Shown here piece by piece: positions 1,056-9,723 of a stretch of DNA of 41,039 nt. Position 1 is the stretch's first letter. Each line of letters opens with the position of its first letter. The notes beneath the pieces are model-generated. The model saw nothing but the letters and a program-made list of their open reading frames with translations, was not told where the DNA came from and searched no databases. The stretch lies in the sequence record NC_093712.1; one strand, 5' to 3'. The translations under genes were made by a program, and so were the position numbers. This DNA comes from a phage.

Positions 1056-1552
1056 TGCATCGGGTCCCAAATTCGTGGAAACGTTGATTGTGCAGTTCCG
1101 TAGGCTTTAAGGAAACACCCCAGCCCGTCACCATAGCAACCGTACAAATCAGGCAGATTGTTAATCAGGCACTGGTTCTCAAGATCCTGGAACGGTGATT
1201 TCTCAGCGGTTGCCGTGAAGGTAATTGTCCAGTTAATCCCGTCTTCGGTAGACTCGGCGATGGTTGACGTGATTGTTACCTGGTAGTCCTCGATACCCAT
1301 GCCGAAGTCGTGCGCCATCCAGAAACTTGACGCACCGCCGTCTACTTTTTCGAGAAACGACAGAAACGCCTGCCGCCCAAGCGCTGATGTAATCAGGGTT
1401 ACGCTTATCGGGAACACGTCGTAATACGTGTCGCGCCCCTGACGTACACCGCCACCAGCTAAATCAACACTCCAGACGTTGTTACGTCTGGTCATTGAGT
1501 AGCCTTTCGATACCACCGGCTTAAGGCTACGTGGGAAATATAAGTCGCTCAT
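1052..1552 (-). CDS. minor tail protein (gpM / distal tail position)
   Basis: 166-aa ORF immediately downstream of tape measure gene, start overlaps TMP stop. Confidence 0.55.
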   Translation of the reverse strand: MSDLYFPRSLKPVVSKGYSMTRRNNVWSVDLAGGGVRQGRDTYYDVFPISVTLITSALGRQAFLSFLEKVDGGASSFWMAHDFGMGIEDYQVTITSTIAESTEDGINWTITFTATAEKSPFQDLENQCLINNLPDLYGCYGDGLGCFLKAYGTAQSTFPRIWDPMQ

Positions 1553-3864
1553 TATTTGAACCCCGGCGCGTTTCTTGTGGCCTTGCGGGCCTTGCTAATC
1601 TTACTGTTGCTGTTCTGCAAAGAGGCCGCCACTTGCTCTTCAATGATGATACGCAAACGGCCTTCATCATCTTGTTCAGTGGATACGTTGCCAATCTGAG
1701 AACTCGTGTTGTTTACGATGGTAACATTAGACGGTCCGGAAGAAGACCCGTTTTGCCCCATAATTTCTTTCATCTGCTGCGCGGTGCGAACACGCGATGC
1801 CCCCGCGGGCATGATAACCTCAGGTTTACCACGTTCGGCGATGGTGGAAGCCTGCCCCGCGGATAACTGACCGCCCTGTTCACGCGCAGATCTGATAGCG
1901 GAAATCTGCGCCATACCCGCCCCAACGGCAGCGGCGGCGGCTACAGGTGCCAGGAACGGACCGACTACAGGGATAGCTGCCGTGGACTTGTACGCCTCAA
2001 TAGCTGCGGTGTATGTGGCTATAGTGGCCTGTACGATAGCGAATGCCTTATACGCACCAGAAGCCTCGCCCAAAGCCGAACCGATGTTTGAGGCCATGTT
2101 ACCAAAGGCGGTTGCCGTCGCGTCGGCGCGTTTCGTGGCGTACTGCTCGTTGATGGCATTAAGCGCGGCCTGGTACTGCTTCTCGCTAATCAGACCCTGT
2201 TCGCGGTACTTATCTGCGACAGCCAGTTTCTGCTGTTCCTGGATGTCGAGAAGCTCAAGCTCGGCGGCGTTCTGCCCCATAATCTGGGCCATGAAGTCAT
2301 CGCCTTTCTGCTGCTTTTCCTGCTGCTCTTTTCTTTTCTTATCCAGTTCTTCCTGTCTGGCCTGCTCGGCTGTGAGCATAATTTGAGTTTTGGCATCTTC
2401 ATACTGCTGCTGGCTTATCGTCCCAGCGCGGTTGAACTCTTCAAGTTTCGCCAGTTTCTGCTCTTCTGCTGCCGTGATACGAGAAATTTCGTCTCCAGTA
2501 GTGCGGTCGACAGTAGCCAGGAAATCTTCCGCCGCTTTTTTCTGCCGTGCGGCTGCAGTTTCTTCGCGTTTGGCTTGTGCCGCCAGACGTTTCTCGTTAG
2601 ATTTAGCCTCGCGGTCCGCCTTCTCTTTCTCGGTCTTGTCAATGCGGGCGATGTCTTGCTGCGCTTCCGCGTCACGGGCGGCATTATACGCGGCTATCTG
2701 TTCTTTGGTGACAGCTTCACGTTTAGCAAACGCCTGCTTATCAAGTTCAGCTTGCGCCCGGATGCGCTCACGGTCGCTTAAGATGGCGATTTGCTGGTTC
2801 TTAACGATAGCTTCGTTCTGTTCCTGGAATCTCTGCGTGGTTGAGTTGACGTTACGACCAAGATTCTTTTGGGCCTCTGCCGCCGCGTTTGCTGACTTCT
2901 CTGCGTTTTCCAGTGCCGTGGCGTTCTTGTTGGCATTATCGGTGAGGCGGATAAGCTCCGGGTTCAACTGTTTTGTGTTACCCAGCCAGTCGGTAAACAC
3001 ATCGGCGATGCGGCGGGCATTCTCCGCGGTTGGCTCTTTGTTAAACGCGCTCTGCGCCGCTATCATCTCCAGCGCCTGGTCACGGTTAACCCCGAACTTA
3101 CTGCTAAGCTCCGCGATATTCTGCGCCAGCATGTTGACGCCTACGATGTTACCCTCGTAAGTGCCGCCTAGTTTTTCTAACGTGTCGCCTACATCCGCAC
3201 CCTTAGAGACCAGTGCATCGTACTGGCTAATCGCCGACGCCGTGGAGGCTTTCCACGTTTCCCATGATTCTGCGTCCTCACGAACAGCTTTAGCTGTTTG
3301 CTGCGCGATAAGGTCCGCGTTAGCCTTAGCCAGAGCAAGCTGAGTCTCTGCCGCTTCTCGGCTTATTTGGGTAAGCTGGATGAGGCCGTCTGTCAGTTCA
3401 AGAGAGCCGGACGCCGTTTGCTGGAAGGTGTCTTTTAACTGTTTCTGCGCGGCTTCGAGGTCTTTTGAACTCCCTTCCGCCTCTGTTAGCGATTTGTACA
3501 GGACGCCGCCGATTGCGGACGCGAGGGCAATTACCGCTCCCAGTACGGCGCCCCCCGGGCCGAAGGCACCCGCAAGCTGCGAACCTTGCTGACCGATTGC
3601 TACGAATGCGGACGTACCGGACTGCAACTGGACAACCATGTCCTGCACCTGGAAGCCCACCTGCCCGGCGGCGTTACGGAACTTAGCGAAACCGTCAGAG
3701 GCCGCTTTAGAGGTAGCTGTGTTAACCTTATTAACATCCGGGGTCAGCTTGTTTACCGCGGTATCTGCACGGTCTGCGGACGACGCCATAGCGTCAAGCT
3801 GTTTGGCGGCTACGTCAGCGCCTTCTGTTTTTACTCTGGCAATTAGGGAAGCCGTATCAGCCAT
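1552..3864 (-). CDS. tail tape measure protein
   Basis: ~770 aa, Ala/Gln/Glu/Lys-rich coiled-coil-like composition, Gly/Ala-rich hydrophobic segment near C-terminus, located after tail chaperone genes; ATG at 3864 preceded by GAGGG (track start 3879 is TTG). Confidence 0.85.
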   Translation of the reverse strand: MADTASLIARVKTEGADVAAKQLDAMASSADRADTAVNKLTPDVNKVNTATSKAASDGFAKFRNAAGQVGFQVQDMVVQLQSGTSAFVAIGQQGSQLAGAFGPGGAVLGAVIALASAIGGVLYKSLTEAEGSSKDLEAAQKQLKDTFQQTASGSLELTDGLIQLTQISREAAETQLALAKANADLIAQQTAKAVREDAESWETWKASTASAISQYDALVSKGADVGDTLEKLGGTYEGNIVGVNMLAQNIAELSSKFGVNRDQALEMIAAQSAFNKEPTAENARRIADVFTDWLGNTKQLNPELIRLTDNANKNATALENAEKSANAAAEAQKNLGRNVNSTTQRFQEQNEAIVKNQQIAILSDRERIRAQAELDKQAFAKREAVTKEQIAAYNAARDAEAQQDIARIDKTEKEKADREAKSNEKRLAAQAKREETAAARQKKAAEDFLATVDRTTGDEISRITAAEEQKLAKLEEFNRAGTISQQQYEDAKTQIMLTAEQARQEELDKKRKEQQEKQQKGDDFMAQIMGQNAAELELLDIQEQQKLAVADKYREQGLISEKQYQAALNAINEQYATKRADATATAFGNMASNIGSALGEASGAYKAFAIVQATIATYTAAIEAYKSTAAIPVVGPFLAPVAAAAAVGAGMAQISAIRSAREQGGQLSAGQASTIAERGKPEVIMPAGASRVRTAQQMKEIMGQNGSSSGPSNVTIVNNTSSQIGNVSTEQDDEGRLRIIIEEQVAASLQNSNSKISKARKATRNAPGFK

Positions 3865-4237
3865 CTTCTCTGCCCTCAAATATTCCGTCTAAGCCCATGA
3901 TAACCTCGGCTTCGAACAAACTTATGCCGTAACCGGCGACATCACGAAACGCTACCAAATCATGCCATTTGAGCGCATCGCGCGGGATTATAACGATAGT
4001 ATCATCTGTTTCGCGCTGTAGGAATTTAATGGCACGGTATTTCTCGAACACGTCGATAAGAGAAACGGGGCATTCTGGCCCCGTCGTTTCTTTCATCTGC
4101 GGTTCTTTAATCACGCCCATTGCAATCAAAGCCGCCTGGTGCCCCGCCGCGATGTCGTCGAATTGCTTACGCTTGTGACGGTCAACAAAGCACCATTGCG
4201 CAAATTCATACAGCGCTTTTACTTTTCCGAGAGTTTC
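3857..4237 (-). CDS. tail assembly chaperone, -1 frame extension (T part of a G/GT-like pair)
   Basis: Frame -1 relative to 4219..4635 is open from 4237; overlaps end of G-like ORF at GGAAAAGTAA; classic position between major tail and tape measure genes. Confidence 0.45.
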   Translation of the reverse strand, partial: ETLGKVKALYEFAQWCFVDRHKRKQFDDIAAGHQAALIAMGVIKEPQMKETTGPECPVSLIDVFEKYRAIKFLQRETDDTIVIIPRDALKWHDLVAFRDVAGYGISLFEAEVIMGLDGIFEGREDG

Positions 4238-4635
4238 TCACGACTGTCGGTGTGATGCTTAACTACGGCCTCCGCCAGCCCACTGTACTGGTCGAACAGG
4301 TTAGCCAGCGCCTCTTTGCTGAACGGTTCGTCGAATGACCAACCGGTGACGATTTCCACGGCAAGCTGCTTGTTCAGGTCCATCACCCGCCAGCCCTTCT
4401 CATCGTTATAGCGCGCCCAGTTATTCAGTGCCTCACACTCTTTATCTAATGGTGCAAGTTCTTCCGTAAGGCGTCGAATTGCCGTTGTGTAGGCGCGGCC
4501 TGCGCGAACGCCAGCATCACAATCTGGGCCAATGACCTGCAACCATTCACCGGAGTCTTTACCACTCGGCAGAAGGATAGGCATTTTAGTGCCTACAGCA
4601 TGGCGGTCAGCAAAATAAAAATCAGAAAGTTTCAT
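4219..4635 (-). CDS. tail assembly chaperone (gpG-like)
   Basis: 138-aa ORF upstream of tape measure, RBS AAAGGA before ATG; overlapping -1 frame ORF downstream. Confidence 0.6.
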   Translation of the reverse strand: MKLSDFYFADRHAVGTKMPILLPSGKDSGEWLQVIGPDCDAGVRAGRAYTTAIRRLTEELAPLDKECEALNNWARYNDEKGWRVMDLNKQLAVEIVTGWSFDEPFSKEALANLFDQYSGLAEAVVKHHTDSREKLSEK

Positions 4636-4742
4636 TCTTTAGTCCTTTGGTTAAGAGGTTACAGGTTAAGGTTGACGCGCCAGACGGGAACCACCCGCTT
4701 TTCGTGTGCGACACTAGGCGCAAACTTATTCTAGCACACTAC

Positions 4743-4772
4743 TTGCACACCCCAATATAATAGGGTACTATT
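4743..4772 (+). promoter_or_regulatory. sigma70-like promoter (TTGCAC-17-TACTAT) with operator AATAG-N4-CTATT at 4759-4772; drives plus-strand accessory island
   Basis: Motif CTTGCACACCCCAAyATAATAGGrTACTATTCAC also found upstream of genes at 24188..24153 and 22701..22667 (minus strand); followed by RBS GAGGAA and ATG at 4800. Confidence 0.5.
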
Positions 4773-4799
4773 CACCTGTAACTTACTGAGGAAATAATT

Positions 4800-5126
4800 A
4801 TGCGTAAATTAGTGTTAGCTCTTGGTTTTATGTCTTTTGCTACTTTTGGGTCTCCGTGTGAACAGGTGTTTAGTGAATCCGTTCTTATGACTTCTGGTGT
4901 GCTTGATAGAGCCGACCCTACTATTGTAAAGGCATTTAAGGACTCTACCGTTCGCGAGTGTGAGGCAGCCGTAGAGGTTGGTAAATCGGGCCTGCCTCCG
5001 CAAGCCGTAACATACACGGTAATACGTTCTGTAGAGAAAAACGGAGACGCGTTTTACAGCCTACTGACCGCCACCCGCCTGCAAATGGTAATGACTGGGT
5101 GGGCAATAGGCGCAGAAAGTAAATAG
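4800..5126 (+). CDS. small secreted or membrane-anchored protein (N-terminal signal peptide); possible superinfection-exclusion type protein
   Basis: 108 aa, hydrophobic N-terminus MRKLVLALGFMSFATFGSPC; first gene of opposite-strand island; good RBS. Confidence 0.55.
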   Translation: MRKLVLALGFMSFATFGSPCEQVFSESVLMTSGVLDRADPTIVKAFKDSTVRECEAAVEVGKSGLPPQAVTYTVIRSVEKNGDAFYSLLTATRLQMVMTGWAIGAESK

Positions 5127-5191
5127 TCGCCTTTATTTAAAGGAATGCACTGTGGTTAAATAGGACAAATCCTAAACACGAGGAAGTAAGC

Positions 5192-6322
5192 ATGGCCCAG
5201 AAGAAAATAACCGACGAACAGTTACAGGAAGAATTGAACGCCGGGATGAAGAATGTAGACATCGCCCGTAAATACGGCATCTCAGACCGCGTTATTCGTA
5301 TCCGTAAAGCGAAGCTGGCTAAGAAAGGTGTAGGCCACGGGCGCGATGTTAGCCACCTTGTACCGGACGGCTACAAGATTAAAGGAACGTCGTCACTTGT
5401 GGACGAGTTCGGCAACACTAAGTTGCAATGGGTTAAGACTGACACTGATGCCGAACGGCAAGTTGAATTGATGAAAGCCGTGATTGAAGGCATGAAGTCA
5501 GAGATTACGCCAGTTGCGCCTGTTAAAGCGACTCGGGCCAAACGTGACGACAAGCTGCTCAATCTTTACACTGTATCTGATTTCCATCTCGGTATGCTGG
5601 CCTGGGCCGACGAGAGCGGCGACGACTGGGATATGAAGATTGCGGAAGACCTGTTCTCCCGTTGGTTTGATGCCGCGTTTCAGAAAGCGCCTGACGCCGG
5701 AACAGGAGTTATTAACCTGCTGGGCGACCTTGCGCACTTCGATAGTCTGGACGCCGTTACCCCCGCAAGTGGTCATGTTCTTGATGCGGACACGCGCTAT
5801 CAGAAACTGGTACGCTACATGATTCGTATGGTACGTCGTGTTGTCGATATGGCCCTCGCTAAGCATAAAACTGTTCGCTTGCTTATCGTGCAAGGGAACC
5901 ACGACGAAAGCGGAATGATTTGGTTAGCTGAGATGTTCAGCACGCTATATGACAATGAGCCGCGTGTGTTCGTCGATACGTCTCCAGATGTTTACAAGAT
6001 GGTGCAACACGGCAAAACGACATTGTTCTTTCACCACGGGCATAAAGCACGCTTCGACGCTATCGAACCGGTTATGGTTGCCAAGTTCCGCAAAGCGTTC
6101 GGCGAGAGCGTTTATAGCTACGCCCACGTGGGTCACCTGCACCACCAAAAGATTGTAGAAAGCCGTAACATGATTGTTGAGCAACACCGCACTCTCGCGG
6201 CTAAAGATGCATATGCCTCCCGCGGTGGGTGGATGTCGGGCCGCAGTGCAAATGTAATTACTTATAGCGCCGAATATGGTGAGGTCGCACGTTTAACTAT
6301 TTCACCGGAGATGCTGGGATGA
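5192..6322 (+). CDS. calcineurin-like metallophosphoesterase with N-terminal helix-turn-helix
   Basis: Motifs SDFHLG, GDLAHFD, GNHDE, GHLHH in correct order for binuclear metallophosphoesterase; N-terminal NVDIARKYGISDRVIRIRK resembles HTH. Confidence 0.7.
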   Translation: MAQKKITDEQLQEELNAGMKNVDIARKYGISDRVIRIRKAKLAKKGVGHGRDVSHLVPDGYKIKGTSSLVDEFGNTKLQWVKTDTDAERQVELMKAVIEGMKSEITPVAPVKATRAKRDDKLLNLYTVSDFHLGMLAWADESGDDWDMKIAEDLFSRWFDAAFQKAPDAGTGVINLLGDLAHFDSLDAVTPASGHVLDADTRYQKLVRYMIRMVRRVVDMALAKHKTVRLLIVQGNHDESGMIWLAEMFSTLYDNEPRVFVDTSPDVYKMVQHGKTTLFFHHGHKARFDAIEPVMVAKFRKAFGESVYSYAHVGHLHHQKIVESRNMIVEQHRTLAAKDAYASRGGWMSGRSANVITYSAEYGEVARLTISPEMLG

Positions 6323-6807
6323 AAGATATTGTGATTTTCGATTTAGATGGAACACTGGCGGATGGTACTCATCGTTTACATCTGCTGCCGAAAGATAACT
6401 ACGGCGAAACCTGGGCGTGGAAGCCTTTTAACATGGCCTGTAAAGATGATGCGCCGATATATGACAACATTCACTTGTGCAACACACTGTGGCATACCGG
6501 GATGATCGTAATCATCCTTACCGGGCGCAGTGATGATGCTGAGGATGAGACTCGTAAATGGTTGCGAGAAAATAACGTTAAGTTTGACACGCTGATAATG
6601 CGCAGCAAACACGACAACAGAAAAGACATCGTAATTAAAGAAGAGGTGTTGCGTGCTATTGGGCCGGAGAGAATCTTGTGTGCATTCGACGACTCTCCAG
6701 CGGTAATAAAGCATTTCCGCGGACTCGGTATAACCACTCACGCGGTTACTGAATACGACTGTAAAGGGAACTCTACTCACTTAAAACCACACGGGAGCGA
6801 TAAATAA
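6319..6807 (+). CDS. HAD-superfamily phosphatase, T4 Pnkp 3'-phosphatase-domain-like
   Basis: DxDGT motif (VIFDLDGTLADG), ILTGRSDD, TRKWL, RKDIVIKEE and FDDSPAVI align by eye with the T4 polynucleotide kinase-phosphatase C-terminal domain; ATGA coupling to upstream gene. Confidence 0.7.
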   Translation: MKDIVIFDLDGTLADGTHRLHLLPKDNYGETWAWKPFNMACKDDAPIYDNIHLCNTLWHTGMIVIILTGRSDDAEDETRKWLRENNVKFDTLIMRSKHDNRKDIVIKEEVLRAIGPERILCAFDDSPAVIKHFRGLGITTHAVTEYDCKGNSTHLKPHGSDK

Positions 6808-7361
6808 TGGCTAAGGTAATTATTCTTAATGGTCCTGCTGGTTGCGGGAAAGACACTCTTGCTATGGCGTTGGTAGAAATGGGCTTTGCAAAAGGAACTG
6901 CCAGTTTCAAGAATCCGATGTTCAATATTGCTATGGCTGCGTTAGGCCAGGATGCTTACCGCGAGTTTCTCGACGGCTACGACGACCGGGCGCGGAAAGA
7001 AAAGCCAGAGGGTTTCCTTAACGGGTTGTCTCGGCGTCAGTTCATGATTGCCATTTCCGAGCAATTCATTAAACCGGTATTCGGTGATGATTATTTCGGT
7101 AAGTATCTTGCCGGAAACTTGCCCGACGGCGACGAAGTTTTTGTGGTGTCTGATGGCGGGTTCGCCAGCGAAGTAGCCCCTATCGTTGCCGCAGGGCATG
7201 ATGTGAGAATCGTCCGCTTGCACAGAGACGGCCATACGTTTGAAGGGGACAGCCGCGGTTACCTGTACGATATTGATGGTGTAAAAGATTATGACACCCA
7301 CATCATACCGGGTTACGTTAAATCGAACGCTATAGGTATTGCTTTAATATTAGGTTTGTAA
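6807..7361 (+). CDS. P-loop nucleotide kinase, T4 gp1 dNMP kinase-like
   Basis: Walker A GPAGCGKDT; further blocks (AMAALG, RRQFMIAIS, VVSDGGF, DVRIVRLHRDG) resemble T4 deoxynucleoside monophosphate kinase as recalled. Confidence 0.65.
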   Translation: MAKVIILNGPAGCGKDTLAMALVEMGFAKGTASFKNPMFNIAMAALGQDAYREFLDGYDDRARKEKPEGFLNGLSRRQFMIAISEQFIKPVFGDDYFGKYLAGNLPDGDEVFVVSDGGFASEVAPIVAAGHDVRIVRLHRDGHTFEGDSRGYLYDIDGVKDYDTHIIPGYVKSNAIGIALILGL

Positions 7362-7363
7362 GA

Positions 7364-7390
7364 AAAAGGCCCCGAAAGGGGCCTTAGTTT
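7364..7390. terminator. bidirectional rho-independent terminator
   Basis: AGGCCCC-GAAA-GGGGCCT hairpin flanked by A-run upstream and T-rich downstream; lies between convergent kinase and major tail genes. Confidence 0.75.
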
Positions 7391-8556
7391 TATGCGTAGG
7401 TGATGCGCTGAATAACAATAGACGACTGGTACTGGTTACCAGTAGCCTGGCCTTCGATGGACTGAGTGATTGACTCAGGCCCGCCAATCTCAGGTGTAAC
7501 CGCGGTAAGTTCTGCACGTTTCAAGCTGAAAGACATAGCCCCGTTTACCCCCGCCAGAATAGAGTTAATCTCCACCTGCTGCTCGTTGATAAACTTCTGA
7601 ATCATCGCCATGTCGTACAGCTTACCGGAGATGGAGAAGGTGTTAGCTGCTCGGCTACGCTCCACAAACGCTACGTTAGTGTTGCCGAGTTCGAACTGTG
7701 CGGACGCGCTGTTGTCGTTGGTGATGGTCAGGCTGTCGCAACGCAACGGCGTAGAACCGTCGAACACAGAAACATCGACCGAGGAGAATGGCTCGTTACC
7801 AAACGTAACAGAGGAGAAATCAGAACCAGACGGCTGCGTGGTGAGAATCTCCTGACTGCGACCGATGAACGGGAAGCTGCCAGTTACCATAGCGTTAACA
7901 GCCTGTTCGATGGTAAAACCAGAAACTTCCACGCCTTTGGTTAGTGTGTACGCGTCAGTCCCGCCGCACTGGCCTTTGTACCAGGTGAGAATAGAGAACG
8001 TCTTGCACTGGCTTCCCGTTTCCAGTTTATCCCCTGTCTTAGCGGCGGTAGTTACTGTCTCTGTGGTCAGGGTATGCTGGATACCTGCCCCGGTCACTAC
8101 CAGCGCCTCTACTGCAGTTACGATAAACGGTTTTGCGTTGTCACCGGTTAAGTCGGTAAACGCAATCAGGTCGCCCACTTCAACGCCGTCAGAAATAAAG
8201 CTACCTTCGGCACGGGTAAAGGTCTTGCCTGCAGGCGCGACGGTAATTGATAGCCCGGTCAGAGAACTACCGGATCGCCATGTAGAGCCTAAAGCACCCG
8301 CCAGCCAGTCGTCCTGGCTTTTCGAGCTAAGCTCAATAGCGTATTCTCCGCTAACCTGCTTGTTACCGGTGCGGATTGACGTAGTTTCACGGCTGCCGTC
8401 CAGTTCGTTGGAGGTCAGCGTGTCGCGGGTAATGGCAGGAACGCCACCTGTGTTACGCAATGGCGACCAGACCGGGTTAGTCGGTGTTACGCCCGGGGTA
8501 GTTTCTGCCACATAGAATTGCGCAGTATTCGCGCCCTTAAAAGGAGTTGTAGCCAT
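7390..8556 (-). CDS. major tail protein
   Basis: 388 aa, Thr/Ser/Gly-rich beta-type composition, position between tail terminator-like genes and chaperones; RBS AAGAGG before ATG at 8556 (track start 8562 is GTG). Confidence 0.65.
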   Translation of the reverse strand: MATTPFKGANTAQFYVAETTPGVTPTNPVWSPLRNTGGVPAITRDTLTSNELDGSRETTSIRTGNKQVSGEYAIELSSKSQDDWLAGALGSTWRSGSSLTGLSITVAPAGKTFTRAEGSFISDGVEVGDLIAFTDLTGDNAKPFIVTAVEALVVTGAGIQHTLTTETVTTAAKTGDKLETGSQCKTFSILTWYKGQCGGTDAYTLTKGVEVSGFTIEQAVNAMVTGSFPFIGRSQEILTTQPSGSDFSSVTFGNEPFSSVDVSVFDGSTPLRCDSLTITNDNSASAQFELGNTNVAFVERSRAANTFSISGKLYDMAMIQKFINEQQVEINSILAGVNGAMSFSLKRAELTAVTPEIGGPESITQSIEGQATGNQYQSSIVIQRITYA

Positions 8557-8558
8557 AT

Positions 8559-8975
8559 TCACAGCCTCTTGGTGAATGCAATAAAGTTAATTGACAATGG
8601 TCGTTTGGCCCATCCGTTTTCTACAATCAGCGGCCCCAGGCTAACCTCACTCACAACGGCGCAGATGTCGTTACGTGAAAATGACTTACCTGCTTTAAAC
8701 GCCGTGTTAAGTAAGTCTGCCATTTTATTGATCGGCGCGCTACCTTTCACCGATGCGTAGTTAATGTCGACCTGATAAACACCCGCGCGTTGTTCCGTGA
8801 AGAACAAATCTGCTTGCTCCGTATCCGCCAGCAACATGTAACTTGCCAGATACGGCGTATCGGTTGACGTCGGCGCGTCTATGTTTTCAAGCGCGACCTT
8901 AATGCCGTTGGTGGTTCCGAAGGCTACCAGCGGCACATCGAACGCTTTCGTTAAGTCCTCAAAGTAGCCCATCAT
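8559..8975 (-). CDS. tail terminator / tail completion protein (positional call)
   Basis: 138-aa ORF directly upstream of major tail gene, ATGA-coupled. Confidence 0.45.
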   Translation of the reverse strand: MMGYFEDLTKAFDVPLVAFGTTNGIKVALENIDAPTSTDTPYLASYMLLADTEQADLFFTEQRAGVYQVDINYASVKGSAPINKMADLLNTAFKAGKSFSRNDICAVVSEVSLGPLIVENGWAKRPLSINFIAFTKRL

Positions 8976-9367
8976 TTCACCTTGTTGGCTTCTTCGTTAA
9001 TGAGTTGCTGGAAACGCGATATATTAGTTCTTACCATACCTTGTGGCGCCTGTTGCGACCAGCCATACTCCAGCCGTTGTGCATACGGCAGATTATTTGT
9101 CAGCGTGAACTCGCGCCAGTCTGTGGCTTTAAGCACGAAACTTGTAGCGTTTCCGGTTGCCGTGTTTCCTGATTTATCCGTAGCGTCTGTAATTCCGGAA
9201 GCGGGAGTGCCGCCAGACGCCATCCAGTTCATACGAAAGCGACCTGTATCTACCGGACTTGCCTTTATGATAGCGGAAAACAGTTTGATAGACACCTGAC
9301 GCATCACCTTCTCGGGGTTCTTCTTCGCCTTTTCCACGAACTTAGAGACATCAAGCGCGAAACTCAT
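8972..9367 (-). CDS. neck / tail-completion protein, HK97 gp10-like
   Basis: 131 aa with VDTGRFRMNW motif reminiscent of HK97 gp10 family (recalled). Confidence 0.5.
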   Translation of the reverse strand: MSFALDVSKFVEKAKKNPEKVMRQVSIKLFSAIIKASPVDTGRFRMNWMASGGTPASGITDATDKSGNTATGNATSFVLKATDWREFTLTNNLPYAQRLEYGWSQQAPQGMVRTNISRFQQLINEEANKVK

Positions 9368-9723
9368 TTTCTCACCTGAATAAAATACGCCACGACATCA
9401 TCGTTAACCATCTTCTTCTCGATAGCTACGACAGACCATTGCTCGCCGCCGAATTGTACCTTGTCTTCCATTTTTGGCACGACACTGCAATCCGCTTTAA
9501 CAACCATGTCGCCAGCCTGAATCGTCGTACCATTAACCAGTCCCACGTTAACCGGAACCGGAACGGCCTTCAACGGCAGCACTTCATCGTCAGACCATAC
9601 GTACTCACCGAGAACTTCATCCCACACTTTCGATCCAGCACGAACCAGAGATACCGTGCTCCCGAATTTGGTTAGCAGTCGTGTACCAACGCCTTGCATA
9701 CGTTTACTGAAAGCAGTGCTCAT
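9364..9723 (-). CDS. head closure / head-tail joining protein (positional call)
   Basis: ORF in connector region; ATG at 9723 is ATGA-coupled to upstream stop (track start 9777 overlaps upstream gene). Confidence 0.4.
   Translation of the reverse strand: MSTAFSKRMQGVGTRLLTKFGSTVSLVRAGSKVWDEVLGEYVWSDDEVLPLKAVPVPVNVGLVNGTTIQAGDMVVKADCSVVPKMEDKVQFGGEQWSVVAIEKKMVNDDVVAYFIQVRK

What the first reader, a model, noticed from the sequence alone, without database searches (positions are those of the whole stretch)
4219..4240. Probable programmed -1 frameshift joining the two tail assembly chaperone ORFs
The G-like ORF ends with GAA AAG TAA (mRNA sense) and the -1 frame is open from 4237 through 3857, overlapping the tape measure start. 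Slippage of the Lys-tRNA from AAG to AAA at the stop codon would make a GT-like fusion of about 259 aa, the conserved arrangement in long-tailed phages.
Basis: inference. Interest (0 to 1): 0.35.

Follow-up and report, generated by a model that had tools for sequence, protein, structure and literature searches.

The report
Tail chaperone frameshift with RNA stem
The two small genes ahead of this phage's tail tape-measure gene are almost certainly joined by a programmed backward slip of the ribosome, an ordinary arrangement already annotated in its closest relative. The slip site, however, is an unusual four-base one followed by a conserved long-range RNA stem that I found described in no paper I could search.

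Summary
On the minus strand, the 138-aa G-like ORF (4635..4219) ends GAA AAG TAA. The -1 frame is open only from 4237 and runs to 3857. A slip of tRNA-Lys from AAG to AAA gives a 259-aa fusion.

The window is a Kagunavirus (K1G/K1H-like) genome. GenBank and RefSeq K1H already carry this fusion with the same junction, and PHROG 15027 models it. The frameshift itself is therefore known and ordinary.

What I add:
- There is no canonical heptamer. About 80 distinct homologues share G-N-A_AAG-UAR.
- Synonymous sites are frozen only at the junction codons (AAG, GTA, GCG, CTG).
- The invariant GCGCUGU box starts 5 nt after AAG. It is the 5' arm of a long-range helix (window 4216..4202 with 4027..4013).
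- The helix is supported by compensatory changes, and it is the only structure RNAalifold predicts.
- In other lineages the 3' arm lies about 70 nt closer, or both arms have changed together.

Best model: an IS3-like A_AAG tetramer shift stimulated by this helix, with the stop codon inside the spacer. No experiment exists. Interest is modest.

The parts
4219..4635 (-). G-like tail assembly chaperone ORF, 138 aa, ATG 4635..4633, stop TAA 4221..4219
   Evidence: Pfam PF08748 Phage_TAC_4, 35.9 bits. PHROG 15027 positions 1-138, E = 2.6e-65.
4238..4240 (-). TGA that closes the -1 frame upstream. It limits the possible shift site to 4237..4222.
4222..4227 (-). Shift site G-A-A_AAG. The A_AAG tetramer is 4225..4222, where tRNA-Lys re-pairs from AAG to AAA. 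G4227 is invariant in homologues, while 4226 varies (A/U/C/G).
   Evidence: Invariant columns G10, A12-G15 of A1 and A3.
4217..4221 (-). 5-nt spacer UAAAA between AAG and the helix. It contains the 0-frame stop (4221..4219), which is always UAA or UAG in homologues and never UGA.
4202..4216 (-). 5' arm of the long-range helix: GCGCUGUA (4216..4209), unpaired U4208, GAAUUU (4207..4202). It encodes T residues A-L-Y-E-F, with synonymous sites frozen.
4013..4027 (-). 3' arm of the long-range helix: AAAUUC (4027..4022), unpaired C4021, UACAGCGC (4020..4013). It encodes T residues K-F-L-Q-R.
3857..4222 (-). T segment in the -1 frame: 121 codons from GTA 4222..4220 to the stop TGA 3859..3857. It is expressed only as the C-terminal part of the 259-aa G-T fusion; nt 4222 is read twice.
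   Evidence: Pfam PF23812 Phage_TAC_18, 63.6 bits. PHROG 15027 positions 139-259. Coding signature.
1552..3864 (-). Tape measure protein gene, ATG 3864..3862. It overlaps the end of T by 8 nt.
   Evidence: Annotated as the tape measure in K1H and Bas73.

Best explanation
This is the tail assembly chaperone (G/GT) recoding cassette of a Kagunavirus.

Shown from sequence and comparison:
- Most ribosomes translating G terminate at UAA (4221..4219) and make the 138-aa chaperone.
- The -1 frame continues from 4222 to 3857. Read through from G, it gives a 259-aa G-T fusion whose T domain has no translational start of its own.
- The signal has three conserved parts. The first is the tetramer A_AAG, preceded by an invariant G two bases upstream. 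The second is a 5-nt spacer that always contains the 0-frame stop UAR. The third is a helix whose 5' arm, GCGCUGUA-U-GAAUUU (4216..4202), pairs with AAAUUC-C-UACAGCGC (4027..4013). That makes 14 bp closing a folded domain of about 170 nt.

Inferred:
- A few per cent of ribosomes slip back one base on A_AAG (4225..4222). The host's only tRNA-Lys (anticodon mnm5s2UUU) re-pairs from AAG to AAA. The next codon read is GUA.
- The helix sits at the ribosome's mRNA entrance when AAG is in the A site and hinders translocation, as in IS3, IS911 and dnaX.
- The adjacent stop may add a pause. It may also let non-shifted ribosomes leave without unfolding the long-range structure.
- By analogy with lambda, the G part binds the tape measure and the T part recruits the tube protein. 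A low GT:G ratio would be set by the shift efficiency.
For: Identity:
- The window is 92-94% identical to Kagunavirus K1H and G AB-2017.
- RefSeq K1H has a joined 259-aa CDS here. Its exact sequence, with junction LSEK|VKALYEF, is ADA82316.1 / YP_009168853.1.
- PHROG 15027 (259 positions) covers G and T end to end. Pfam TAC_4 and TAC_18 both match.
- The tube and terminator genes lie upstream.

The T frame is translated without its own start:
- The first ATG/GTG/TTG in the T frame falls at codon 5, 11, 13, 32, 35, 48, 58 or 95, depending on lineage.
- Yet T codons 6-31 differ at positions 1/2/3 by 0.29/0.29/0.60. Mean identity is 0.605, as high as in G.

The shift site:
- All 44 homologues found by protein search down to 44% identity end G in NNA AAG TAR. 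The preceding codon is GAA, GUA, GCA or GGA.
- Four relatives at 29-35% identity instead carry U_UUU_UUC or A_AAU_UUU inside the overlap.
- The window has no tRNA gene.

Constraint at the nucleotide level:
- In 19 non-redundant sequences, every invariant degenerate amino-acid column varies synonymously except four. These are K138 AAG, V139 GTA, A141 GCG and L142 CTG, each 19/19.

The helix in the window:
- There is an 8-bp perfect complement.
- The MFE fold of 4003..4227 contains the 8+6 bp helix. Energy is -81.3 kcal/mol, z = -4.09, and 0 of 200 shuffles fold as well.

The helix in group A (42 distinct sequences, alignment A1):
- 84.5% of cells are paired, against 21-48% when the partner is slid. 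0 of 500 shuffles reach the covariation score.
- Compensatory changes occur at three pairs. One lineage changes three adjacent pairs at once.
- RNAalifold predicts only this helix across 243 columns.

The helix in groups B and C (A3):
- The 3' arm is at T codons 43-46, where the amino acids vary but CAGCGC does not.
- In Shashou- and wksl3-like phages both arms changed together: GCGUUGCU with AGCAACGC, and GCGUUGUUUC with GAAACAACGC.
- Pair 24-147 is CG in 15 sequences, UA in 11 and unpaired in none.

Mechanistic precedent:
- A_AAG is the most shift-prone tetramer in E. coli. It is barely active alone and reaches percent levels with a 3' structure 5-6 nt away (PMC4066793).
- The lambda G:GT ratio of about 30:1 is functionally important (PMC5009743).
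Against: - No experimental evidence exists for the fusion protein, the shift efficiency or the RNA structure in this phage group, in anything I could search.
- There is no canonical X_XXY_YYZ heptamer. One published annotation of a relative states this and leaves T as a separate gene (PMC6776780).
- Other records start T at CTG or TTG.
- Both helix arms lie in coding sequence for conserved residues in group A, so part of their conservation is protein constraint.
- The compensatory events are few and the sequences are related, so the shuffle statistics overstate independence.
- The local 122 nt after the site are not unusually stable (z = -0.87). A stimulator with a loop of 110-190 nt is unusual for bacteria.
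- The invariant G at 4227 and the absence of UGA are not explained by the model.
Confidence: 0.8

Rival explanations
1. Same product, different timing. The shift is a 'shifty stop' event. tRNA-Lys slips from AAG to AAA while it is in the P site and the ribosome waits for a release factor at UAA/UAG in the A site. The helix plays a secondary role or another role.
For: - The stop is immediately 3' of AAG in every A_AAG-type homologue, about 80 distinct sequences in three groups.
- The Val codon that overlaps the stop is GTA in 19/19, although GTG, GTC and GTT would also encode Val.
- The codon before AAG (GAA/GUA/GCA/GGA) usually cannot re-pair in the -1 frame, so the slip involves one tRNA.
- Shifty stops are an established phenomenon (Weiss et al. 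1987, cited in PMC5009743).
Against: - With AAG in the P site, the helix would start only 2 nt after the A-site codon. Its first base pairs would already be melted.
- The 5-nt spacing instead matches stimulators that act when the slippery codon is in the A site (IS3 spacing in PMC4066793).
- The stop may be conserved for other reasons: a fixed G C-terminus, or sparing the helix from 0-frame ribosomes.
Confidence: 0.3
2. T is made as a separate protein by independent initiation or termination-reinitiation. The start would be the conserved CTG (TTG in Shashou-like phages) 9 nt after the G stop, or an internal TTG/ATG, as several GenBank records annotate.
For: - Bas73 annotates T from the CTG at the homologue of window 4213.
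- Shashou annotates T from the TTG at the same codon, with an RBS feature.
- Gene callers produce 87-aa versions starting at an internal ATG.
- The [CT]TG codon is invariant.
Against: - CTG is a very poor start codon in E. coli (general knowledge).
- No Shine-Dalgarno sequence lies at a proper distance.
- The codon lies inside the 5' arm of the conserved helix, which would occlude rather than expose it.
- Internal canonical starts are not conserved in position, while the residues upstream of them are conserved and show a coding signature.
- Distant relatives carry canonical slippery heptamers in the overlap.
- In lambda the T domain works only when fused to G (PMC5009743).
Confidence: 0.05
3. 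The frameshift relies on A_AAG (plus the stop) alone. The conserved long-range helix serves something else, such as mRNA stability, control of tape-measure translation or processing.
For: - Lambda G/GT needs no known structure (general knowledge).
- The helix closes an unusually large loop.
- The 3' arm sits at two different places, which could suggest a looser requirement.
Against: - The 5' arm starts exactly 5 nt after AAG in all three groups, even where the 3' partner has moved or both arms have changed sequence.
- Tetramers without a stimulator are barely above background in E. coli, 0.147% against 0.112% (PMC4066793).
Confidence: 0.15
4. The frame change is made at the RNA level: RNA polymerase slips on the A run and produces transcripts with one extra A.
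For: An A run lies at the site (GAAAAG).
Against: - The run is only 4 A in the window and 3 A in many homologues (GUAAAG, GCAAAG). Known slippage-prone runs are much longer (general knowledge).
- An inserted A would give +1 nt, which equals a -1 frame change only by insertion at low-probability short runs.
- The conserved stop and helix would be unexplained.
Confidence: 0.01

Closest known systems
Lambda gpG/gpGT and the conserved tail assembly chaperone frameshift of long-tailed phages (Levin, Hendrix & Casjens 1993; Xu, Hendrix & Duda 2004; summarised in PMC5009743)
   Same: - Two overlapping ORFs lie directly upstream of the tape-measure gene.
- The second ORF is in the -1 frame and has no start of its own.
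- The shift is near the end of G and involves tRNA-Lys at AAG.
- The products are a short protein and a fusion about twice as long (138 and 259 aa).
   Different: - Lambda uses the canonical heptamer G_GGA_AAG with no known RNA stimulator, and its stop is further downstream.
- Here only the tetramer A_AAG is conserved (G_GAA_AAG in the window). The stop is immediately adjacent and a conserved helix follows.
- The tube gene and G are separated by about 2.7 kb of opposite-strand genes.
Escherichia phage K1H ORF19A/ORF19B (GU196278 / NC_027994; ADA82316.1, YP_009168853.1) and PHROG 15027
   Same: Same genus, same gene pair, identical junction sequence GAA AAG TAA AAG CGC TGT ATG. The annotated 259-aa fusion has the junction LSEK|VKALYEF.
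   Different: This is annotation only. I found no described signal or experimental test. Other records of the same subfamily annotate two separate genes.
IS3 orfA-orfB -1 frameshift (A_AAG tetramer plus 3' pseudoknot; Sekine et al. 1994; analysed in PMC4066793)
   Same: - A tetramer A_AAG whose P-site codon cannot re-pair.
- An RNA structure starts about 5 nt downstream.
- Percent-range efficiency is expected.
   Different: - IS3 uses a compact local pseudoknot, and its 0-frame stop lies inside the structure.
- Here the structure is a long-range closing helix, and the stop is in the spacer.
IS911 three-way-junction stimulator, IS3411-type distant loop-loop pseudoknots, and the T7 gene 10 distal element (PMC5009743)
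   Same: These are bacterial or phage -1 frameshift stimulators that are larger than a simple hairpin, or that involve sequence 44 to over 200 nt downstream.
   Different: - Here the distant element is the 3' strand of the basal helix itself, 110-190 nt away.
- Its position differs between sister lineages while the 5' strand stays fixed.

Membership tests
Phage tail assembly chaperone pair G/GT expressed by programmed -1 frameshift | Two ORFs immediately upstream of the tape-measure gene and downstream of the tail tube gene | tested here: met
   G is 4635..4219 and T ends at 3857. The tape measure starts at 3864. The tube gene, 7390..8562, matches PF18906. A + strand block at 4800..7361 intervenes between the tube gene and G.
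Phage tail assembly chaperone pair G/GT expressed by programmed -1 frameshift | Second ORF in the -1 frame relative to the first, overlapping its end, without its own conserved start codon | tested here: met
   The -1 frame is open over 4237..3857. The first canonical start varies from codon 5 to codon 95 among homologues. The coding signature begins at the junction.
Phage tail assembly chaperone pair G/GT expressed by programmed -1 frameshift | Canonical slippery heptamer X_XXY_YYZ in the overlap | tested here: not met
   G_GAA_AAG in the window; GUA, GCA or GGA precede AAG in relatives. Only the tetramer A_AAG is conserved. One contig (L040) has lambda's G_GGA_AAG. Relatives at 29-35% identity do have U_UUU_UUC or A_AAU_UUU.
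Phage tail assembly chaperone pair G/GT expressed by programmed -1 frameshift | Sequence membership in tail assembly chaperone families | tested here: met
   PF08748 scores 35.9 bits (cut-off 21.1) and PF23812 scores 63.6 bits (cut-off 27). PHROG 15027 is covered end to end. No solved structure is detectable by sequence.
Phage tail assembly chaperone pair G/GT expressed by programmed -1 frameshift | Fusion protein is made at a low ratio and is needed for tail assembly | not testable with these tools
   This needs a Western blot or mass spectrometry, plus genetics.
Tetramer-type bacterial -1 frameshift signal (Z_ZZN plus 3' structure, IS3 type) | [quoted passage not shown] | tested here: met
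   A_AAG at 4225..4222 is invariant in about 80 distinct homologous sequences. It heads the tetramer hierarchy in E. coli (PMC4066793).
Tetramer-type bacterial -1 frameshift signal (Z_ZZN plus 3' structure, IS3 type) | RNA structure beginning about 5-7 nt 3' of the motif | tested here: met
   The helix starts 5 nt after AAG. It is supported by the MFE fold (z = -4.09), by pair counts and covariation and by RNAalifold. Whether it stimulates shifting was not tested.
Tetramer-type bacterial -1 frameshift signal (Z_ZZN plus 3' structure, IS3 type) | The structure is a pseudoknot | not tested
   Only nested helices were examined. The interior of the domain is not conserved in structure.
Shifty stop (P-site slippage beside a stop codon) | Stop codon immediately 3' of the slippery codon | tested here: met
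   AAG UAA in the window; AAG UAR in all A_AAG-type homologues, never UGA.
Shifty stop (P-site slippage beside a stop codon) | Shift efficiency depends on the stop codon or on release factor activity | not testable with these tools
   This needs a reporter with TAA changed to TCA, or variation of RF1 level.
Transcriptional slippage | Long homopolymeric A or T run at the site | tested here: not met
   Four A in the window and three in many homologues.
Rfam frameshift elements | Match to a curated covariance model | tested here: not met
   No Rfam family matches window 3800..4700 at E <= 1.

The most novel reading that the evidence does not exclude
Guernseyvirinae tail chaperone genes use a previously undescribed frameshift cassette with three features. 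First, a bare A_AAG tetramer. Second, the 0-frame stop placed inside the 5-nt spacer. Third, a long-range helix closing a domain of 110-190 nt as the stimulator.

Placing the stop in the spacer would let the ~95% of ribosomes that do not shift terminate without unfolding the slow-folding long-range structure.

During evolution the 3' strand of the helix has jumped between two coding positions about 70 nt apart, while the 5' strand and its spacing stayed fixed.
Probability: 0.5. Interest if true: 0.55.

Novelty: new member of a known kind. Interest (0 to 1): 0.38.

Why it matters
For genome annotation. Records of this phage subfamily disagree: joined CDS, two 'chaperone' genes starting at CTG or TTG, or 'hypothetical protein'. 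One paper states there is no slippery sequence. The conserved signature G-N-A_AAG-UAR-NN-(helix) gives a clear rule for annotating the 259-aa fusion. Kagunavirus and Jerseyvirus phages are widely used as therapeutic and biocontrol candidates.

For recoding biology. If the helix is a stimulator, this is a natural, phylogenetically rich example of a tetramer-type signal in a phage structural gene. It has a long-range closing helix, a mobile 3' partner and a stop codon in the spacer. That makes it a convenient system for testing how distant pairing and termination combine to set a fixed low frameshift ratio.

It does not change the general picture of tail assembly.

Tried and rejected
- Local downstream hairpin or pseudoknot. 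Folding 60-120 nt after the site in 19 lineages gave no common structure, and z = -0.87 in the window. I rejected a local stimulator. The partner appeared only when the search was extended beyond 200 nt.
- Pairing of the box with the HEAAL-coding GCGGCG about 85 nt downstream. It is present in some lineages with two G.U pairs, absent in others, and compatible with chance. Not adopted.
- Upstream Shine-Dalgarno-like stimulator, as in dnaX. No conserved purine-rich element lies 8-14 nt upstream.
- Duplex-energy test against synonymous-codon shuffles. Per-sequence values were only weakly significant (0-90 of 200 shuffles as good), because long GC-rich arms find alternatives. The argument therefore rests on positional consistency and covariation.
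- The large protein database search with the fusion returned only G-length proteins and no names. It was uninformative, whereas the exact look-up was decisive.
- PDB sequence search: nothing. Rfam: nothing.
- The Jerseyvirinae taxonomy paper (PMID 25663216), cited in the Shashou record for predicted frameshifts, is not held.
- Termination context (fourth base after the stop). A, C and U all occur, with no clear rule. Dropped.
Full report
**1. What the window is**

The region 1400..9400 is 92-94% identical to Escherichia phages G AB-2017 and K1H, genus Kagunavirus, subfamily Guernseyvirinae. On the minus strand the local gene order is as follows:
- tail terminator, 8975..8559 (PF13554);
- tail tube, 8562..7390 (PF18906);
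- a block of + strand genes, 4800..7361;
- the G-like ORF, 4635..4219;
- the T frame;
- the tape-measure gene, 3864..1552.

**2. The observation**

In mRNA sense the G ORF ends ...GAG AAA CUC UCG GAA AAG UAA, with the stop at 4221..4219.
- The -1 frame has UGA at 4240..4238 and is then open to UGA at 3859..3857. A shift can therefore only happen within 4237..4222.
- A slip of tRNA-Lys from AAG (4224..4222) to AAA (4225..4223) puts GUA in the A site. The product is ...REKLSEK-VKALYEF..., 138 + 121 = 259 aa.
- The tape-measure ATG is at 3864..3862, not 3865, and overlaps T by 8 nt.
- Only one of 68 mechanical ORFs of at least 100 aa in the window ends in A_AAG plus a stop, and it is this one.

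**3. Both halves are tail assembly chaperone sequence, and the fusion is already on record**

- G matches Pfam Phage_TAC_4. The T part matches Phage_TAC_18.
- PHROG 15027, a 259-position profile called tail assembly chaperone, is matched by G over positions 1-138 and by T over 139-259.
- RefSeq K1H annotates a two-piece CDS of 779 nt at the homologous place.
- I built the K1H fusion for the possible junctions. Only the LSEK|VKALYEF version exists in the public protein collection, as ADA82316.1 / YP_009168853.1, 'tail assembly chaperone [Escherichia phage K1H]'.

The interpretation handed to me is therefore already in GenBank for the nearest relative. Annotation is inconsistent, though:
- Bas73 starts T at a CTG.
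- Shashou starts T at a TTG and calls it hypothetical.

**4. T is translated, but not from its own start**

I compared 43 distinct homologues from IMG/VR.
- The first canonical start codon in the T frame lies at codon 5, 11, 13, 32, 35, 48, 58 or 95, depending on lineage.
- The residues from the junction onwards are conserved: KV-x-ALY-x-[FY]-A-x-W....
- In 19 non-redundant sequences, T codons 6-31 differ at codon positions 1/2/3 by 0.29/0.29/0.60. Mean pairwise identity is 0.605, against 0.615 for the body of G.

This is the signature of a translated segment under purifying selection that begins right at the G stop.

**5. The slip site**

- All 44 homologues down to 44% identity end G with NNA AAG UAR. 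The preceding codon is GAA, GUA, GCA or, once, GGA.
- These P-site tRNAs mostly cannot re-pair in the -1 frame. The conserved element is therefore the tetramer A_AAG, not a heptamer.
- Four relatives at 29-35% identity keep a -1 extension of about 100 codons. They carry canonical U_UUU_UUC or A_AAU_UUU heptamers 18-50 nt before their stop. The arrangement is older than this particular signal, as expected for G/GT.
- In E. coli, A_AAG is the best tetramer. Tetramers are barely above background alone (0.147% against 0.112%), and the six active tetramers reach 0.26-5.6% with a structure about 5 nt downstream, A_AAG ranking highest (PMC4066793).
- The window encodes no tRNA, so the host's tRNA-Lys is used. 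That E. coli has a single tRNA-Lys with a weak AAG interaction is background knowledge (Tsuchihashi & Brown 1992).

**6. Frozen synonymous sites**

In the 19 non-redundant sequences, every invariant amino-acid column with a degenerate codon varies synonymously except four. These are K138 AAG, V139 GTA, A141 GCG and L142 CTG, each 19/19.

At the nucleotide level the invariant string is G-N-A-A-A-G-U-A-R-N-N-G-C-G-C-U-G-U. This points to a functional RNA element exactly at the proposed site.

**7. The partner of the invariant box**

- Local folds of 60-120 nt showed nothing shared.
- A search of the window for the box found its perfect reverse complement at 4013..4020, that is UACAGCGC in the mRNA, 189 nt downstream.
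- The MFE fold of 4003..4227 pairs GCGCUGUA-U-GAAUUU (4216..4202) with AAAUUC-C-UACAGCGC (4027..4013). Energy is -81.3 kcal/mol against -62.1 +/- 4.7 for shuffles, z = -4.09, 0 of 200.

The same register holds in other lineages, with 8 to 16 contiguous pairs:
- One lineage (L012/L013) has CGCGCUGUUGAAA pairing with UUUCAACAGCGCG. Three adjacent pairs are changed on both sides, and the encoded amino acids change on both sides too.
- Others convert U-A to C-G through U.G intermediates.

A pattern scan added 26 more homologous sequences. On 42 distinct group A sequences (A1, no gaps):
- 84.5% of cells pair, against 21-48% when the partner is slid by 1-3 columns;
- no shuffle reaches the covariation score;
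- RNAalifold, given no hint, predicts this helix and nothing else in 243 columns.

**8. Other lineages**

Group B (25 of the 38 distinct group B/C sequences; 15 in A3) has no complement at that place.
- It has an invariant CAGCGC at T codons 44-46, in a linker whose amino acids vary (A/T/P-A-R/Q/P).
- This pairs with the same box over 6-10 bp.

Group C was found from the Shashou protein, independently of any nucleotide pattern. It includes Shashou and a contig of the same length as Salmonella phage wksl3.
- The box itself differs, and the 3' arm differs to match.
- The pairings are GCGUUGCU with AGCAACGC, GCGUUGUUUC with GAAACAACGC, and one G.U variant.

On 26 distinct group B and C sequences (A3), pair 24-147 is C-G in 15, U-A in 11 and unpaired in none. 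Overall 85% of cells pair against 23-51% slid, and 0 of 500 shuffles reach the covariation score.

In all three groups the helix starts 5 nt after AAG, occasionally 4.

**9. Mechanism**

Shown:
- the reading-frame anatomy;
- the family membership;
- the conservation of tetramer, stop and helix;
- the covariation.

Inferred:
- The helix acts as the frameshift stimulator. With GAA in the P site and AAG in the A site, its first pair is about 12 nt from the first P-site base. That is the position where IS3, IS911 and dnaX structures act (PMC4066793; PMC5009743).
- The adjacent stop may add a pause, in the 'shifty stop' manner.
- My suggestion: the stop may also let the large majority of ribosomes terminate after melting only the first few pairs, so that a slow-folding long-range structure is not erased by bulk translation.
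- The product is the same whichever tRNA position slips.
- By analogy with lambda (PMC5009743), the G part would coat the tape measure and the T part would recruit the tube protein. The ratio would be set by the shift efficiency. This step is analogy, not tested here.

**10. Rivals**

- Independent initiation at the conserved [CT]TG is unlikely. CTG is a very weak start, there is no properly spaced Shine-Dalgarno sequence, the codon is buried in the helix, and distant relatives have true heptamers.
- Transcriptional slippage is excluded in practice by runs of only 3-4 A.
- A helix with some other function cannot be excluded. It would not explain the fixed 5-nt spacing through three different arm configurations.

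**11. Novelty and limits**

The frameshift itself is a known kind of feature and is already annotated for K1H. The window adds one more member.

I found no description of the tetramer-stop-helix signal:
- not in the searchable literature;
- no Rfam family matches;
- the one paper that comments says no slippery sequence exists.

Subscription papers, such as Bull et al. 2010 and Anany et al. 2015, could not be read, so prior mention cannot be ruled out.

All evidence is comparative. The sequences are related, the number of independent compensatory events is small (roughly eight), and nothing has been measured.

**12. Unexplained**

- G4227 is invariant while the next base varies freely.
- UGA is never used as the stop, although GUG would keep the valine.
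- The reason the 3' arm occupies two alternative positions is unknown.

Noticed in passing
window 9364..9373 (minus strand): The junction reads GTG AGA AAA TGA, with the next ORF's ATG overlapping the stop (ATGA), and the -1 frame is open through it. RefSeq K1H joins the two homologous 'tail completion / Neck1' ORFs into one two-piece CDS, implying a second A_AAA-plus-stop -1 shift. Bas73 and Shashou annotate two genes. The 24-nt junction is identical in the window, K1H, Bas73 and Shashou. An SD-like GGTGAG upstream makes ordinary translational coupling the simpler reading.
   Followed up: partly
window 4064..4085 (minus strand): A local hairpin, GACGGGGCC-AGAAU-GCCCCGUU, encodes the conserved G-P-E-C-P motif of T. 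Gly is GGG and Cys is TGC in nearly all lineages that have the motif (A1, A3). This hints at a second conserved RNA hairpin. It lies inside the long-range loop in group A and just 3' of the helix in groups B and C.
   Followed up: no
window 4800..7361 (+ strand): The tail gene module is interrupted. Between the tube gene and the chaperone gene lie four opposite-strand genes: a hypothetical protein, a metallophosphoesterase / 'DNA repair exonuclease', a polynucleotide kinase and an ATP-binding protein. The G-T-tape-measure unit must therefore have its own promoter in 4636..4800. A weak sigma-70-like match lies at 4782..4754.
   Followed up: no
window 4227 and 4219..4221: The first base of the codon before AAG is G in every homologue, while its second base takes all four values. 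The stop is UAA or UAG in about 80 distinct sequences and never UGA, although GUG would still encode the overlapping valine. Neither constraint is explained by the model.
   Followed up: partly
L006..L011, L002, L172 (public records of relatives): Annotation of this gene pair is inconsistent across GenBank. K1H has a joined CDS. Bas73 and fFiEco02 have two 'tail assembly chaperone' genes with a CTG start. Shashou has a hypothetical protein with a TTG start. Automatic gene calls give 87-aa fragments.
   Followed up: yes
L193 (IMGVR_UViG_638275545_000001): One relative has the G reading frame broken after 37 codons despite 85% protein identity over the whole gene. This may be a sequencing indel or a pseudogene.
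   Followed up: no
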